In this document: one piece after another, positions 3,439-36,277 of the stretch
Layout of the letters: each line of letters begins with the position of its first letter
Position numbering within the stretch: the first letter of the stretch is position 1
Virus record (IMG/VR): IMGVR_UViG_3300017766_002493
Span: 32,001 to 96,000 of that record
DNA length: 64,000 nt
Source: a virus
Strand: one strand, 5' to 3'
The notes under the pieces: model-generated
Database searches by the model: none
Told to the model about the DNA's origin: nothing
The model's input: the letters and a program-made list of their open reading frames with translations, nothing else
Made by a program: the position numbers and the translations under genes

Positions 3439-3567
3439 TTAGCAAGCTTTACCGCCCATCTTCTTTTTAGGCACAGCACCTTTTGGAGGTGTGCTTGTAC
3501 CACCAACTTTCCCTGTTGGCTTTTTTACAACTGTAGCTGTAGCATTTTTTTTAACTGCTTTTTTCAT
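3439..3567 (-). CDS. Small basic protein (42 aa, not in ORF track)
   Basis: Manual translation MKKAVKKNATATVVKKPTGKVGGTSTPPKGAVPKKKMGGKAC; tight packing with neighbours. Confidence 0.65.
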   Translation of the reverse strand: MKKAVKKNATATVVKKPTGKVGGTSTPPKGAVPKKKMGGKAC

Positions 3568-33479: not shown

Positions 33480-33880
33480 CCTGCTGATATGCAAAGAGTT
33501 AGAGGTTGTGTGACACACACGCAACCTCCTACCTCTTTCATACCACTGAAACAACTCTCAAATTTGCAAAAAGATTTTCTCTCGCATTATATCACTAATC
33601 TTAACTAATTACTTACTCTAAATCTATTATTCTATGTCTACAGACAAAGTAAATAACAATAATACTTCTCTTAGTAATGAAGAGATATTAGCTCTTATAC
33701 ATCAAGAGTATCTTAGTATTATATCAGAGAGTGGTGTACCTCTATGGGTATTAGATTACTATAAAGGGGTAGAAGAACCACGGCTACTTAAAAATGACAA
33801 CAATGACTAGGTATTTTATATACCAGCACACAATATTGCATAGTTTATATTTTAATTGGTTAGTAAAACAATAATCTATG

Positions 33881-34311
33881 TGCACTCTGGATACAAGGTT
33901 ACACTACAAAACGTGTAACCTATATCTAGAATAATGAATTGTGGTCTTGTGAAACCCATCTAATCAATGGGACTGAGCTAGGGTATATGCAAAGGGTATA
34001 AGCTTTGTTTGCCTTATATAGACCTATGTTTGACTCACTCAGAAAAAGTGAGCACCGGAACCGAGAGATTGATCATCTCTATGCGGTTGATAGAAGAGGA
34101 GATATTCTCCAAGTAAGAATCCGGCAATCAGGGTAGCATCTAGCCCTGTAAAATAATGCACCATAACTCCATTCCCAAGGTGGAGCAGTTGTAATAGTTT
34201 AATTGCTGGTAAACAAACAAGCCAGAATCAGGTGAAATAAACTAATCCTGACAATTAAGTAAGGGTGAGAGCTTATTATTCTACTCAAGAATACTATTAC
34301 AACTGAGTGCA
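33881..34311. ncRNA. Large structured ncRNA candidate (~430 nt)
   Basis: No ORF in the track; closing stem TGCACTC/GAGTGCA; perfect 13-bp helix 34186-34198/34293-34305; about ten internal hairpins. Confidence 0.7.
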
Positions 34312-34357
34312 GAGGGTATAAATAAACAAATTATTAACAATTTAAATACCAACTCAA

Positions 34358-34636
34358 ATGACTAAAGAACAAGCACTTGAAAAAACTGTATCAAGATTTA
34401 CCAATCTAATGGATGGTAAAGTATTATCTAATGTAGGGGTTCGCACAATAATAGACTATTATGAACAACTACAAAAGAATAGTGTACTCAAAGTTTCTAC
34501 TATGGGTAACATAGAAAGAAGATTTTTAGATGCAGAGATTGCTTTTAACCAACAAGAATTAGAAGATGAAATGGGATATAATGACCATCCACTCCCTCAA
34601 GATACATGGGACGGCGGCTTTGTCCAAGAACCATAA
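34358..34636 (+). CDS. Hypothetical protein
   Basis: 92-aa ORF with an A-rich leader. Confidence 0.6.
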   Translation: MTKEQALEKTVSRFTNLMDGKVLSNVGVRTIIDYYEQLQKNSVLKVSTMGNIERRFLDAEIAFNQQELEDEMGYNDHPLPQDTWDGGFVQEP

Positions 34637-34646
34637 CAATAAACAA

Positions 34647-34810
34647 GGATTACGCACAGCAAACCAATACAATTTAAATGTAAACTGTAAAAATGTAATC
34701 TGTAATCGGTGTAAAGAATACTTCAGCACAAAAAATTAAAACTACAAAACAAAAACCCGGGAAAGTTTTTGCTCCTAAGTAATTAGGTGGGATTTTAATT
34801 TAGTATTCTG
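34647..34810 (+). ncRNA. Two CAGCA-stem RNA units upstream of the DUF2828 gene
   Basis: GGATTAC-GCA-CAGCA...GTAATCTG and AGAATAC-TT-CAGCA...GTATTCTG. Confidence 0.55.
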
Positions 34811-34891
34811 TTATGCACCACAATCCTGCCTCTTGAAAGGGGGCAGGAACTTTCCCTTAAACAAATAATTAAAATCCAAAAACTTAACAAC

Positions 34892-36277
34892 ATGAACAAT
34901 CTTATCAACGCAACAAGACAATACAACACAACGACTAACAACGGTGCAATCACACACTCTACAAGTCTAAACTATTGTTTAGATATGTTCTTCTTGGCAG
35001 GTGCTAGTAGGAATCTATCTCAAGATCAGATAGTTAGGATCTTTGAGAGAGCTTATGCACAAGACAAGAATCTTGCTTACAAGATATTGTTTTGGTCAAG
35101 AGACTGCAGAGGTGGTGCCGGTGAAAAGAGATTCTTTCAGATTGTAATGAAGCATGTTGCTAAAACATATGCTGAAGATTATGATCAGATAGCCATACAC
35201 ACTCCAGAGTATGGGTATTGGAAAGATATCTTCCAGGTAGAGAAGCCAAATAAGAATAATCTTAATTGGTTGATGTATCAATTGGAAGAATCACCCAATA
35301 AGAATCTGTTAGCCAAGTGGTTTCCACGCAAAGGTCCATGGTTCAGTGCTATGCACAAGTATCTAAAGCTGACTCCTAAAGAGTTCAGAAAGAAACTTGT
35401 GGCTATGACCAAGGTGGTGGAAACTCAAATGTGTGCAAGACAATGGGACTCAATCAATTATGAGCAGATCCCATCCACAGCTATGAATCTGTATAGAAAA
35501 ACATTCTTCAAGCACGATGCTGAAAGATATGCTGAGTATATACAAAGTGTTCACAGCGGTGAAGCTAAGATTAATGCCTCTACATTGTTTCCTCATCAGC
35601 TCTTACAAGGGTTGATGCAAGGTCATGATGTGAGCTCGGTTGAAGCCCAGTGGAATAACCTTCCTGATTACATGGCTGATAGCACAGAGAATATTCTCCC
35701 TGTGTGTGATGTCAGCGGTAGCATGTCGGGTCTTCCGATGGATGTATCTATCTCTCTAGGATTGTATATCTCAGAGAGAAACAAAGGTATATTCAAGGAT
35801 GCTTTCTTAACTTTCTCGGAGACACCTACGATGCAGTATCTAAAAGGTACTCTTAATCAAAGGAGAATCCAGTTAAGCCAAGCAGAGTGGGGGTATTCAA
35901 CTAATCTTAAGGCCACATTTGACCTTATCCTAGACAGTGCAGTTAGAAACAATCTACCAGAGTCTGAGATGCCAACTAAACTTCTTATCATATCTGATAT
36001 GGAGTTTGATGAGGCAGACAGCAACAGAACAAACCTAGATATGATAAGAGACAAGTATTCTAAAGCAGGATACAATATGCCTCAGATCATATTCTGGAAT
36101 GTTAATGGTAGACCAGGTAATGTTCCTGCTAACAACACTGATAAAGGTGTAGGTATGGTGTCAGGGTTTAGTCCTTCTGTACTGAAGTCCATATTAAAAG
36201 GACAGGTGTATACACCTGAACAATTAATGTTGGATACAGTTGATATTGCGCGGTATGCTCGTATTAAAGTTGACTAG
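34892..36277 (+). CDS. DUF2828 family protein (TROVE/Ro60-like helical region plus vWA)
   Basis: T.NGA, RD.RGG.GEK, YGYWKD, AKW.PR, MIDAS DVSGSM, IISDMEFD, IIFWN and VSGFSP motifs. Confidence 0.85.
   Translation: MNNLINATRQYNTTTNNGAITHSTSLNYCLDMFFLAGASRNLSQDQIVRIFERAYAQDKNLAYKILFWSRDCRGGAGEKRFFQIVMKHVAKTYAEDYDQIAIHTPEYGYWKDIFQVEKPNKNNLNWLMYQLEESPNKNLLAKWFPRKGPWFSAMHKYLKLTPKEFRKKLVAMTKVVETQMCARQWDSINYEQIPSTAMNLYRKTFFKHDAERYAEYIQSVHSGEAKINASTLFPHQLLQGLMQGHDVSSVEAQWNNLPDYMADSTENILPVCDVSGSMSGLPMDVSISLGLYISERNKGIFKDAFLTFSETPTMQYLKGTLNQRRIQLSQAEWGYSTNLKATFDLILDSAVRNNLPESEMPTKLLIISDMEFDEADSNRTNLDMIRDKYSKAGYNMPQIIFWNVNGRPGNVPANNTDKGVGMVSGFSPSVLKSILKGQVYTPEQLMLDTVDIARYARIKVD

What the first reader, a model, noticed from the sequence alone, without database searches (positions are those of the whole stretch)
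33881..34311. Large ornate ncRNA candidate (~430 nt) in the early region
Seen: an ORF-free, GC-elevated stretch whose ends pair (TGCACTC 33881-33887 with GAGTGCA 34305-34311). A perfect 13-bp helix CAGTTGTAATAGT/ACTATTACAACTG encloses four small hairpins. Further stems include GGTTACAC/GTGTAACC, CTCACT/AGTGAG, CCGGA/TCCGG enclosing AACCG/CGGTT, AGAGAT/ATCTCT and GGAGA/TCTCC, then CAGGG/CCCTG and CTCCA/TGGAG. I could not match it to tmRNA, RNase P or group I/II intron hallmarks. Inference: a large structured phage RNA, either new or related to classes such as ROOL/GOLLD.
Basis: partly seen in the sequence, partly recalled or inferred. Interest (0 to 1): 0.8.

Follow-up and report, generated by a model that had tools for sequence, protein, structure and literature searches.

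The report
Twister-type ribozyme behind a folded leader
The 430-base "ornate RNA" of this freshwater phage is really two things, a hairpin-rich non-coding leader followed by an uncatalogued variant of the self-cutting twister ribozyme that probably cuts the early transcript just before the next gene.

Summary
The stems, the ORF-free gap and the strong fold are real (z -5.0). It is not one large RNA.

**3' third (34155-34316).** Helix order, loop letters and spacing match the twister ribozyme as numbered in two papers. Covariation supports P2, P4, P5 and the T1 pseudoknot. Rfam's twister models never match it. In other phages a conserved upstream RNA is followed either by this motif or by a true Rfam Hatchet ribozyme.

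**5' part (33881-34154).** It is unique to this phage and one 96-98% relative. That relative shows one compensatory pair change, an extra twister and a swapped P5 insert.

**Predicted cut.** U34154|A34155, 203 nt before ORF92. A Ro60/TROVE-like gene lies 0.6 kb downstream.

Cleavage is untested. The scan noted similar uncatalogued phage twisters on other DNA.

Verdict: a new variant of a known kind, of moderate interest.

The parts
33881..33887 (+). It is a possible competitor of ribozyme helix P2.
   Evidence: Sequence. The same 7-mer lies within 400 nt upstream of 5 of 77 family members, against 0.98 expected. Three of those five are a different conserved element. The window is not among the 12 strongest upstream duplexes.
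33886..33930 (+). Hairpin H1: outer stem 33886-93 with 33923-30, inner stem 33896-904 with 33913-21 (GGUUACAC/GUGUAACC).
   Evidence: MFE folds. In relative L286 this hairpin is followed directly by an extra twister-like ribozyme. RNA-library contigs cover 33812-33933 and 33823-33982.
33936..34031 (+). Branched domain of the leader, with hairpins CCCAU/AUGGG and GGGUAUA.../...UAUAGACC.
   Evidence: MFE fold. It is 96% identical in L286. No other relative was found. An RNA-library contig covers 33971-34125.
34034..34052 (+). Hairpin CUCACU/AGUGAG.
   Evidence: MFE folds.
34055..34124 (+). Domain closed by CCGG/CCGG (34055-58 with 34121-24). It encloses the AACCG/CGGUU, AGAGAU/AUCUCU and GGAGA/UCUCC stems.
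   Evidence: MFE fold. Of the 4 substitutions between window and L286 in 33941-34154, two are the partners C34056>U and G34123>A, which keeps the pair.
34129..34148 (+). Hairpin CAGGGU/GCCCUG ending 6 nt before the predicted cut. It would be the 3'-terminal hairpin of the upstream product, or a P0-like stem.
   Evidence: A hairpin in this position is typical of the family: mean dG of the 45 nt upstream is -8.45, against -6.10 for the stretch 100 nt further up and -4.81 for shuffles (n=79, Wilcoxon p 6e-4 and 7e-11).
34154..34155 (+). Predicted scissile step U34154|A34155.
   Evidence: By position, from the U6-A7 step of the rice twister (PMC6154101, passages read). In the family alignment, 81 of 88 letters are U at -1 and 87 of 88 are A at +1. 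Not tested biochemically.
34155..34316 (+). Twister-type ribozyme core.
- P2: 34157-61 with 34307-11.
- Candidate T2: C34161, C34162 with G34180, G34179.
- P4: 34167-71 with 34181-85.
- Loop L4: 34172-80.
- P5: 34186-98 with 34293-305.
- G34312 and A34313 sit at the catalytic G and A positions.
- T1: C34174-76 with G34316-14.
   Evidence: Model R1 scores 78.3 bits, E about 1e-20. It is the only copy in the 120-kb genome. Covariation in the 91-sequence alignment supports it. All pairs are Watson-Crick in the window.
34199..34292 (+).
   Evidence: It has no relative among the P5 inserts of the family: 60 inserts had no relative and 22 fell into 10 small groups. In the 96-98% relative L286 it is replaced by an unrelated insert of about 45 nt resembling that of L051.
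34330..34357 (+). 28-nt leader directly before the ATG of ORF92. Homology with relative L002 starts at 34330, and the same leader precedes ORF117 there.
34358..34636 (+). ORF92, the first gene on the predicted 3' cleavage product. It starts 42 nt after the ribozyme core ends.
   Evidence: No Pfam or PHROG family.
34892..36277 (+). Context: a 461-aa Ro60/TROVE-like protein with a vWA domain (DUF2828 + DUF7788).
   Evidence: Pfam E 1.9e-35 and 6.1e-49; phrog_850 'RNA-binding protein' E 1.5e-142. AlphaFold2 model pLDDT 78.3. The top 12 Foldseek PDB hits are all Ro60/TROVE structures, E 3.6e-7 to 3.2e-5.

Best explanation
The stretch is a composite on the + strand.

**34155-34316: a twister-class self-cleaving ribozyme.** It is in P1 orientation, with P1 weak or absent, no P3, and a 13-bp P5 carrying a 94-nt dispensable insert. 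It belongs to a large phage-borne subfamily that Rfam's models do not catch.

**33881-34154: a hairpin-rich non-coding leader.** It is specific to this phage lineage.

**Proposed mechanism (inferred, not shown).**
1. As the early transcript is made, the ribozyme folds and cuts between U34154 and A34155.
2. The upstream piece (the ORF58 message plus the folded leader) ends in the hairpin 34129-48 with a 2',3'-cyclic phosphate.
3. The downstream piece starts with a 5'-OH and the compact ribozyme fold. It carries ORF92 and, further on, the structured RNAs and the Ro60-like gene.
4. The ribozyme thus works as intercistronic punctuation that gives neighbouring RNAs independent ends and stabilities.

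The conserved ribozyme halves also appear to serve as break-points where modules are exchanged between related phages.
For: **Family.**
- 92 distinct copies also carry the 3' half, which was not in the pattern.
- Model R1 finds 91 matches in 100 sources, 83 of them full-length at 62.7 bits or more.

**Structure (89 distinct rows).**

| Helix | Cells paired | Pairs with changes on both sides |
|---|---|---|
| P2 | 99.8% | 4 of 5 |
| P4 | 98.9% | 5 of 5 |
| P5 | 97.3% | 8 of 9 |
| T1 pseudoknot | 99.6% | 2 of 3 |

- 0 of 500 shuffles reach the observed values, and slid controls pair in only 27-56% of cells.
- G-U pairs in P5 fit the + strand only.

**Twister match by position.** The papers give U6-A7 as the scissile step, G13/C14 and G30/C31 in T2, C25/C26 in T1, G45 as general base, and A46 and G48 as essential (PMC6154101; PMC5113685). 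In the window the same letters fall at the same spacings:
- U34154/A34155.
- C34162.
- C34174/C34175, then G34179 five positions on.
- G34312, A34313, G34315.

The G13-C31 pair is replaced by C34161-G34180. The 3' letters were not in the fetch pattern and are nearly invariant: G in 84 of 86, A in 86 of 86.

**Context.**
- 89 of 91 copies are not inside a same-strand ORF of 60 aa or more.
- 27 of 81 have a gene start within 61 nt downstream.
- A conserved upstream RNA ('element X') is recognisable in 15 of the 37 pattern hits. It is followed by this motif in 7 loci and by a Hatchet ribozyme in 8. All 8 Hatchets are confirmed by Rfam at 80-83 bits against a cut-off of 51.
- Hammerhead cores lie upstream in relatives L007 (Rfam sub-threshold, 31.7 bits) and L004 (by eye).

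**Leader.**
- No coding frame and fold z -3.9.
- One compensatory pair among the 4 substitutions against L286.
- RNA-library contigs from 3 runs cover 33812-34125. This is weak support, because DNA carry-over is not excluded.

**Modularity.** L286 has an extra twister after H1 and another P5 insert.
Against: - No Rfam twister model matches any family member:
  - twister-P1 and Twister-P5 on the own genome at E<=10;
  - cmscan at gathering score on 20, then 15, then 12 loci;
  - E<=10 on two minimal copies of 58 and 50 nt;
  - twister-P1 on 5 further records.
- P1 is paired in only 60% of cells and cannot form in the window.
- T2 is invariant, so it is untested. Its first pair is inverted relative to the rice ribozyme, where single changes of G13 abolish activity (PMC5113685).
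- Two rows change C34161 and G34307 together, which would extend P2 rather than form T2.
- 83 of the 91 aligned copies were fetched with a pattern that fixed 17 letters of the 5' half. Conservation there is therefore by construction, and the alignment was fitted to the model.
- No cleavage, transcript end or strand has been observed. The RNA data are contigs only, and some contigs of other family members run across the predicted cut.
- The leader has only one close relative, so its structure rests on one compensatory event and on thermodynamics.
Confidence: 0.72

Rival explanations
1. One large ornate non-coding RNA of about 430 nt, closed by 33881-87 with 34305-11. It would act as a single folded unit, as the first reader proposed (ROOL/GOLLD-like or a new class).
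For: The MFE of the whole stretch uses the long-range end pairing and is far below shuffles (z -5.04). No ORF is present. The 7-mer is enriched upstream of family members, 5 of 77 against 0.98 expected.
Against: - The 3' third occurs on its own in at least 90 loci.
- The 5' part has no relative there.
- L286 splits the 'RNA' with a second ribozyme and swaps the P5 insert while keeping the rest at 96-98%.
- The end pairing competes with the covarying P2 helix.
- Most of the 7-mer enrichment comes from a different element.
- The window is not among the 12 strongest upstream duplexes.
- No ROOL or GOLLD match.
Confidence: 0.06
2. The conserved 3' motif folds as described but does not cleave. Instead it is a protein-binding or translational leader element, or a target of a host nuclease, placed before early genes.
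For: Rfam twister models never match. The motif often sits 20-61 nt before a start codon. P1 is weak, and the first T2 pair differs from the studied ribozyme.
Against: - Every position that the papers name as catalytic or pseudoknot-forming is present at the right spacing.
- T1 covaries.
- The motif and a confirmed Hatchet ribozyme replace each other directly after the same upstream RNA.
- P1 is reported as dispensable, and L2 tolerates extra helices (PMC5113685).
Confidence: 0.14
3. A DNA-level feature: a cluster of inverted repeats serving recombination, replication or termination, with no RNA function.
For: Both strands fold equally well. Break-points between relatives coincide with the conserved halves (34195/34297, 34330). 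One terminator-like site lies on the - strand at 34110-34098.
Against: - G-U pairs in P5 and P4 would be mismatches on the other strand.
- The T1 pseudoknot covaries, which has no meaning in duplex DNA.
- The orientation is always that of the flanking genes.
- RNA-library contigs cover the leader.
Confidence: 0.05

Closest known systems
Twister self-cleaving ribozyme, type P1 with optional P5 (Roth et al. 2014, not held here; Rfam RF03160; reviews PMC6154101 and PMC6765202; mutational map PMC5113685)
   Same: - The order is the same: U|A-A, a 4-5 bp P2, two T2 letters, an A-rich linker, and a P4 hairpin whose loop carries three C, two A and two pseudoknot letters. An optional P5 follows, then the P2 3' strand and G-A-G-G-G.
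- A T1 pseudoknot joins the P4 loop to the 3' strand.
- The motif is intergenic, phage-associated and found beside hammerhead and hatchet ribozymes.
   Different: - It is not detected by any Rfam twister model.
- P1 is weak or missing, and there is no P3.
- P5 is almost always present. By contrast, P5 is reported in 1% of annotated twisters (PMC6154101). Here it carries hypervariable inserts of 0 to about 290 nt.
- The first T2 pair is C-G instead of G-C.
- The sequence of the P5 base is itself conserved.
Hatchet ribozyme (Rfam RF02678)
   Same: In related phages it occupies the same slot, directly after the same conserved upstream RNA. Like this motif, it cuts at its own 5' edge.
   Different: The fold and sequence are unrelated, and there is none in this window.
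RNase III processing sites between early genes of phage T7, and promoter-early stem-loop cassettes of T4-type phages (recalled, not read here)
   Same: Intercistronic punctuation of an early polycistronic transcript that leaves a hairpin at the 3' end of the upstream RNA. Repeated conserved elements at which gene cassettes are exchanged.
   Different: Here the cut would be made by the RNA itself. It would leave a 2',3'-cyclic phosphate and a 5'-OH rather than the ends that RNase III leaves.
Y RNAs next to Ro60 genes in bacteria and phages (PMC4201824, passages read)
   Same: Structured non-coding RNA encoded upstream of a Ro60/TROVE-like gene on the same strand.
   Different: - About 270-430 nt, against 80-130 nt.
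- No GNCGAAN0-1G motif in 33811-34891.
- No tRNA-like domain.
- A 92-aa ORF lies between it and the gene.
- The better Y-RNA candidate is the pseudoknotted RNA at 34704-34860.
ROOL and GOLLD large phage-associated RNAs
   Same: Large, branched, phage-borne and non-coding.
   Different: No Rfam match at gathering score or at E<=10. The stretch is modular rather than one conserved fold.

Membership tests
Twister ribozyme | A scissile N-A step followed by A, lying 5' of helix P2 (U6-A7 in the rice ribozyme). | tested here: met
   U34154|A34155-A34156, then P2. In the family alignment -1 is U in 81 of 88 letters and +1 is A in 87 of 88. The two A were fixed by the fetch pattern; the U was not.
Twister ribozyme | Helices P2 and P4 flanking the conserved loops. 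| tested here: met
   P2 is paired in 99.8% of cells, with 4 of 5 pairs showing a change on both sides (in 1-2 rows each). P4 is paired in 98.9%, with 5 of 5 pairs showing such changes (14-36 rows each).
Twister ribozyme | Pseudoknot T1 between the P4 terminal loop and the 3' strand of L1. | tested here: met
   C34174-76 with G34316-14. The helix is paired in 99.6% of cells, and 2 of 3 pairs change on both sides: U-A in 2 rows and A-U in 2 rows.
Twister ribozyme | Pseudoknot T2 between L2 and the P4 loop (G13-C31 and C14-G30 in rice). | tested here: inconclusive
   C34161-G34180 and C34162-G34179 can pair. The columns are C-G in 82 and 85 of 89 rows and never covary. The first pair is inverted relative to rice. 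Two rows change C34161 together with G34307 instead.
Twister ribozyme | A catalytic guanine directly after the P2 3' strand, followed by an essential A and the T1 guanines (G45, A46, G48). | tested here: met
   G34312, A34313, G34314-16. G in 84 of 86 letters and A in 86 of 86, and these were not in the fetch pattern. Identities come from PMC6154101 and PMC5113685.
Twister ribozyme | Helix P1 closing the motif. | tested here: not met
   Only 60% of cells pair in the best register, and no complement exists in the window. PMC5113685 reports P1 as not essential for catalysis.
Twister ribozyme | A match to the curated covariance models (RF03160, RF02684, others in cmscan). | tested here: not met
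   No match at E<=10 or at gathering score. This includes minimal 58-nt and 50-nt copies.
Twister ribozyme | Site-specific self-cleavage giving a 2',3'-cyclic phosphate and a 5'-OH. | not testable with these tools
   Only assembled contigs of RNA libraries were available.
Twister-sister ribozyme | A similar P4 loop but no double-pseudoknot fold (PMC6154101, section 2.2 read). | tested here: not met
   T1 pairing covaries. No RF02681 match in cmscan.
ROOL / GOLLD | A match to the Rfam models of these large RNAs. | tested here: not met
   None at gathering score in the window or at E<=10 in 33500-34700.
Y RNA (YrlA-like) | 80-130 nt, a GNCGAAN0-1G Ro-binding motif near the 5' end, a tRNA-like T/D domain, and a position adjacent to the Ro60 gene (PMC4201824). 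| tested here: not met
   No such motif in 33811-34891. No tRNA-like hit. The size is 270-430 nt, and it is separated from the gene by ORF92.

The most novel reading that the evidence does not exclude
The ribozymes are there to manufacture defined RNA ends for a phage RNA-protein system. Twister here, and hammerhead or hatchet in relatives, would release structured RNAs: the 33881-34154 leader and the pseudoknotted RNA at 34704-34860. These would carry 2',3'-cyclic-phosphate and/or 5'-OH ends. They would then be the ligands of the phage's Ro60-like protein, or substrates for host RtcB-type sealing or circularisation, as suggested by L007, where a hammerhead and the twister bracket a 385-nt RNA. 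The upstream UGCACUC would act as a switch that withholds cleavage. That would give phage twisters a concrete function and define a viral counterpart of the Ro60-Y RNA-RtcB axis.
Probability: 0.12. Interest if true: 0.8.

Novelty: new variant of a known kind. Interest (0 to 1): 0.45.

Why it matters
The biological role of bacterial and phage twister, hatchet and hammerhead ribozymes is still called unknown in the reviews read here (PMC6765202).

This locus and its relatives give testable clues:

- A large twister subfamily is invisible to the standard models, so ribozyme counts in phage metagenomes are underestimates.
- The motif and a true Hatchet replace each other at the 3' edge of the same conserved RNA. 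This points to formation of RNA 3' ends as the selected function.
- The ribozyme halves mark the break-points at which inserts and genes differ between near-identical phages.
- The whole array sits in front of a phage Ro60-like gene. That links self-cleaving RNAs to an RNA-quality-control protein whose bacterial relatives work with Y RNAs.

For this particular stretch, the practical result is a corrected annotation. It is a ribozyme plus a leader, not a new giant RNA.

Tried and rejected
**Searches that found nothing useful**

- Rfam at gathering score on the window and at E<=10 on 33500-34700 gave only chance-level hits.
- blastn of 33600-34650 against 50,697 phage records found no match.
- nhmmer of the 5' part (33811-34154) against 1.1 Mb of fetched loci found nothing below E 2.6.
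- The P5 insert has no relative among the family's inserts.
- PDB sequence searches with the Ro60-like protein alone found 0 hits. With a 6-sequence profile the best E was 0.021, to an unnamed protein. Only the fold search was informative.
Only 1 (L252) is a true copy; the rest are chance matches to the pattern.

**Ideas tested and dropped**

- Coding remnant: stops occur in all six frames, and ORF117 of the relative has no remnant in the window.
- My early reading that relative L002 'lacks' the element was wrong. Its contig simply starts downstream of it. L286, from the same sample series, carries the element followed by ORF117.
- tRNA association: only 6 of 91 copies have a tRNA within 1.5 kb.
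- A specific link of the ribozyme to the Ro60-like gene: only 3 of 78 ribozyme loci hold that gene, and the downstream ORFs are 57 singletons plus 7 small groups.
- A general 'anti-ribozyme' pairing upstream: the mean duplex energy is -11.0, against -9.9 downstream and -10.2 for shuffles (p 0.01 and 0.05). The effect is driven by element X loci, and the window is not among the top 12.
- A hammerhead, or a Y-RNA motif, in 33811-34891: none.

**Read laying**

- All four runs are contigs, so no ends, strand or level can be read.
- Stretches without cover mean nothing.
- Contigs of other family members cross the predicted cut.

**Literature**

- Searches for 'DUF2828', twister + bacteriophage + metagenome, RAGATH, phage genomes + twister and crAss + ribozyme + hatchet listed no paper describing this subfamily. 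The crAss hits I opened were 'Neurospora crassa'.
- Roth et al. 2014 is not held. I did not try to open Weinberg et al. 2015.
- Supplements are closed.
- I therefore cannot exclude that those authors' alignments already contain such copies.
Full report
**Setting.** The window is bases 32001-96000 of a 120,123-bp virus record with direct terminal repeats.
- Portal, large terminase and major head genes lie on the minus strand. Helicase and other replication genes lie on the plus strand.
- The finding sits 4-5 kb into the plus-strand block. It lies in a 547-nt gap between a 58-aa ORF (33634-33810) and a 92-aa ORF (34358-34636).

**Observation.**
- The gap has no usable frame: the largest ORFs are TTG-started and 43 aa or less, and there are frequent stops in all six frames.
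- G+C rises only to 0.40-0.42, against 0.30-0.33 around it.
- 33881-34311 folds at -129.8 kcal/mol, against -98.2 +/- 6.3 for shuffles (z -5.04). The other strand folds as well (z -5.68).
- The 13-bp helix is exact.
- cmscan finds no Rfam family at gathering score in the 64 kb. At E<=10 in 33500-34700 it finds only four chance-level hits.
- blastn against 50,697 phage records finds nothing.

**First clue: the neighbourhood.**
- The 461-aa protein at 34892-36277 matches DUF2828 and DUF7788 and PHROG 850, 'RNA-binding protein'.
- An AlphaFold2 model built on six homologues has pLDDT 78.3. Its top 12 Foldseek hits in the PDB are all Ro60/TROVE structures, at E 3.6e-7 to 3.2e-5 over roughly full length.
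- Ten IMG/VR loci encode relatives of this protein. All those with upstream sequence have a long non-coding gap before the gene.
- Only L007 shares sequence with my stretch, and only with its 3' third (nhmmer E 2.8e-6).
- The window-L007 alignment shows identical single-stranded letters and compensatory changes in two helices.

**The 3' third is a family.**
- There were 126 pattern hits in all, counting the window and L007. Of these, 31 lack the 3' half within 450 nt; those I looked at lie in unrelated sequence. The hits that do carry the conserved 3' half, which was not part of the pattern, reduce to 92 distinct sequences.
- I built covariance model R1 from the 24 shortest copies.
- The window scores 78.3 bits (E about 1e-20). 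It is the only match in the phage's own genome.
- In 100 sources R1 finds 91 matches: 83 full-length at 62.7 bits or more, 2 cut by locus ends and 6 weak.
- On that alignment (89 distinct rows), P2, P4 and P5 are paired in 99.8, 98.9 and 97.3% of cells. They have 4 of 5, 5 of 5 and 8 of 9 pairs showing changes on both sides.
- A pseudoknot between the three C of the hairpin loop and the three G at the 3' end is paired in 99.6% of cells, and two of its three pairs change on both sides.
- No shuffle of 500 reaches the observed values, and slid controls pair in 27-56% of cells.
- G-U pairs in P5 fit only the plus strand.
- Caveats: 83 copies were fetched with a pattern that fixes 17 letters, and the alignment was fitted to the model.

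**What the family is.** A note from another first-stage reading of the same genome called 34150-34320 a twister ribozyme. That label changed my reading, and I tested it.
- The review PMC6154101 gives the rice twister's scissile step as U6-A7 and G45 as general base. It describes contacts of the scissile-site adenine with C25/C26, T1 and T2 formed by loop L4 with L1 and L2, and optional P0, P3 and P5 in 21, 78 and 1% of examples (passages).
- The whole text of PMC5113685 adds several points. G13, G30, A46 and G48 are the only positions where every substitution abolishes activity. C14U, C25U, C26U and C31U are tolerated as wobbles. T1 and T2 pairs can be exchanged for other pairs. P1 is dispensable, and L2 tolerates extra helices.
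- Laying these numbered letters on the window gives the same letters at the same spacings:
  - U34154|A34155;
  - two unpaired A, a 4-bp P2, then the T2 letters (C34161, C34162);
  - in the loop, C34174 and C34175, with G34179 five positions later;
  - after the P2 3' strand, G34312, A34313 and G34315.
- The one difference is that the pair equivalent to G13-C31 is C34161-G34180.
- The 3' letters, which my pattern did not fix, are G in 84 of 86 rows and A in 86 of 86.
- The twister-sister class is described as unable to form the pseudoknots (section read), so T1 covariation argues for twister proper.

**Against simple membership.**
- No Rfam twister model matches any copy. This covers twister-P1 and Twister-P5 on the own genome at E<=10, cmscan at gathering score on 20, 15 and 12 loci, E<=10 on a 58-nt copy (L028) and a 50-nt copy (L252), and twister-P1 on five records.
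- P1 pairs in only 60% of cells and cannot form in the window.
- T2 never varies.
- I therefore file it as a variant of the twister class whose activity is untested.

**Independent support from context.**
- Three of those five belong to a conserved RNA of about 115 nt, 'element X'.
- A pattern scan gave 37 stretches, of which 15 show element X. Its closing stem and inner stems are kept through compensatory changes.
- Element X is followed within 90 nt by the twister-type motif in 6 loci and at 183 nt in a seventh.
- In 8 loci it is followed by the 5' part of a Hatchet ribozyme. All 8 are confirmed by Rfam at 79.8-82.7 bits against a cut-off of 51, starting where element X ends.
- L024 also has a Hatchet 0.9 kb upstream.
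- Hammerhead cores lie at the start of the non-coding gap in L007 (Rfam 31.7 and 26.4 bits, below threshold) and in L004 (by eye).
- Two unrelated motifs in one slot is the argument that first identified twister as a ribozyme (PMC6765202, passages).

**Where the motif sits.**
- 89 of 91 copies are outside same-strand ORFs of 60 aa or more.
- The next such ORF starts within 61 nt in 27 of 81 copies, and 42 nt after the core in the window.
- The nearest upstream ORF ends a median 285 nt away.
- The 45 nt before the cut form a hairpin more often than controls: mean -8.45 against -6.10 and -4.81 kcal/mol, and 38 against 18 of 79 at -8 or lower. In the window this hairpin is 34129-48.
- The genes that follow are unrelated small ORFs, 57 singletons of 79.
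- The Ro60-like gene is present in only 3 of 78 ribozyme loci (window, L007, L072), so the ribozyme is a general device of these early regions.
- P5 inserts range from 0 to about 290 nt. Among those long enough to compare, 60 had no relative and 22 fell into 10 small groups. The window's insert is unique.

**The 5' part.**
- 33881-34154 folds with z -3.87 into hairpin H1, a branched domain, a short hairpin, a domain closed by 34055-58 with 34121-24, and the terminal hairpin.
- It has no relative in 1.1 Mb of ribozyme loci.
- Through ORF58 I found one close relative, L286. It is 98.5% identical up to 33941 and 96.3% over 33927-34195.
- Between H1 and the rest, L286 carries an extra twister-type element of about 300 nt (35 bits, with a large insert).
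- Its copy of the window's ribozyme scores 88.7 bits, but its P5 insert is replaced precisely between the conserved P5 strands by one resembling L051's. The next gene is ORF117, the gene that heads contig L002.
- In the 214 nt shared after H1 there are four substitutions. Two are C34056>U and G34123>A, partners in the predicted stem, and the other two are unpaired.
- That is one event, but unlikely by chance. My rough estimate is below 1%.
- Contigs from three RNA libraries of lake water cover 33812-33933, 33823-33982 and 33971-34125 at 99-100% identity. These are contigs, and DNA carry-over is not excluded.

**Reading.** The transcript is most likely cut at U34154|A34155.
- The upstream RNA keeps the folded leader and a terminal hairpin with a cyclic phosphate.
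- The downstream RNA begins with the ribozyme and carries ORF92.
- The conserved halves also mark where relatives differ (34195/34297; 34330, where homology with L002 begins). This fits exchange of modules by recombination at repeated elements.
- The long-range pairing 33881-87 with 34305-11 could hold back P2. However, a general test gave only a weak effect, and the window was not prominent.

**Novelty.** Twisters, their phage association and their unknown role are established (PMC6765202).
- What is new here is a subfamily missed by the curated models, its hypervariable P5, its exchange with Hatchet behind a conserved RNA, and its place in an RNA-rich leader of a phage Ro60-like gene.
- My literature searches listed no description of it.
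- The original papers and all supplements were out of reach.
- The scan's own notes report similar uncatalogued phage twisters on other genomes (I did not check those).

Noticed in passing
window 34704-34860 (also L072 709-895, L004 3820-3965, L007 3655-3810, L009 1983-2115): A conserved pseudoknotted RNA lies directly before the Ro60-like gene in 5 of 5 aligned loci.
- Helix a: GAAUAC/GUAUUC in the window, GGAUAC/GUAUCC in others.
- Helix b: GGGAAAGU/ACUUUCCC in the window, with compensatory variants elsewhere.
- Helices a and b interleave.
- There are also two covarying hairpins, an invariant UCAGCA and an AAGUA loop.

It is the best candidate for the protein's RNA partner or a cis-regulatory leader. 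RNA-library contigs of two studies cover 34654-34830.
   Followed up: partly
L263 14375-14489, L024 7385-7499, L028 3208-3320(-), L014 6600-6732 and 11 more loci: 'Element X' is a structured RNA of about 115 nt with no Rfam match. It has a covarying closing stem. A hairpin loop within it is complementary over 11 nt to the twister-type 3' core, and over 8 nt to a conserved stretch of Hatchet. It is always followed by one of these two ribozymes.
   Followed up: partly
L007 3353-3427; L004 about 3471-3510: Hammerhead cores (CUGAUGAG...CGAAAC) open the non-coding gap before the Ro60-like gene. In L007 the hammerhead and the twister-type motif would bracket a 385-nt RNA with a 5'-OH and a cyclic phosphate, the substrate type of RtcB ligases. 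In L007 the Rfam score is below threshold. L004 was seen by eye only.
   Followed up: partly
L011 3700-3815: Upstream of the Ro60-like gene lies a tRNA-like sequence (acceptor, D and T arms) interrupted by an insert of about 55 nt that contains a UUCAGCA motif. This is reminiscent of tRNA-like bacterial Y RNAs. A normal tRNA lies at 3465-3536.
   Followed up: no
L286 2808-3110; metatranscriptome contigs (loose ends before 34173): A sub-type of the twister-like motif has a long insert (about 190 nt in L286) between the P4 5' strand and the loop's C-run. The insert ends in AAUCAGC. The same junction appears in contigs of three RNA libraries at depths up to 30.
   Followed up: no
window 34330-34357 and L002 1-29 / 434-461: The same 28-nt A/T-rich leader precedes different early genes (ORF92, ORF117). 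It marks the point where close relatives gain or lose a gene, so it is a likely recombination or translation-initiation cassette boundary.
   Followed up: partly
window 34647-34700: A smaller stem unit (GGAUUAC ... GUAAUCU) with the same CAGCA and terminal CUG-UAAU layout as the RNA at 34704-34860. L072 470-535 has a similar unit. Other first-stage notes flagged it too.
   Followed up: no
L093 7798-8271: A phage contig carrying a tmRNA gene (Rfam 70.9 bits) next to a tRNA, in a locus that also holds two twister-type motifs.
   Followed up: no
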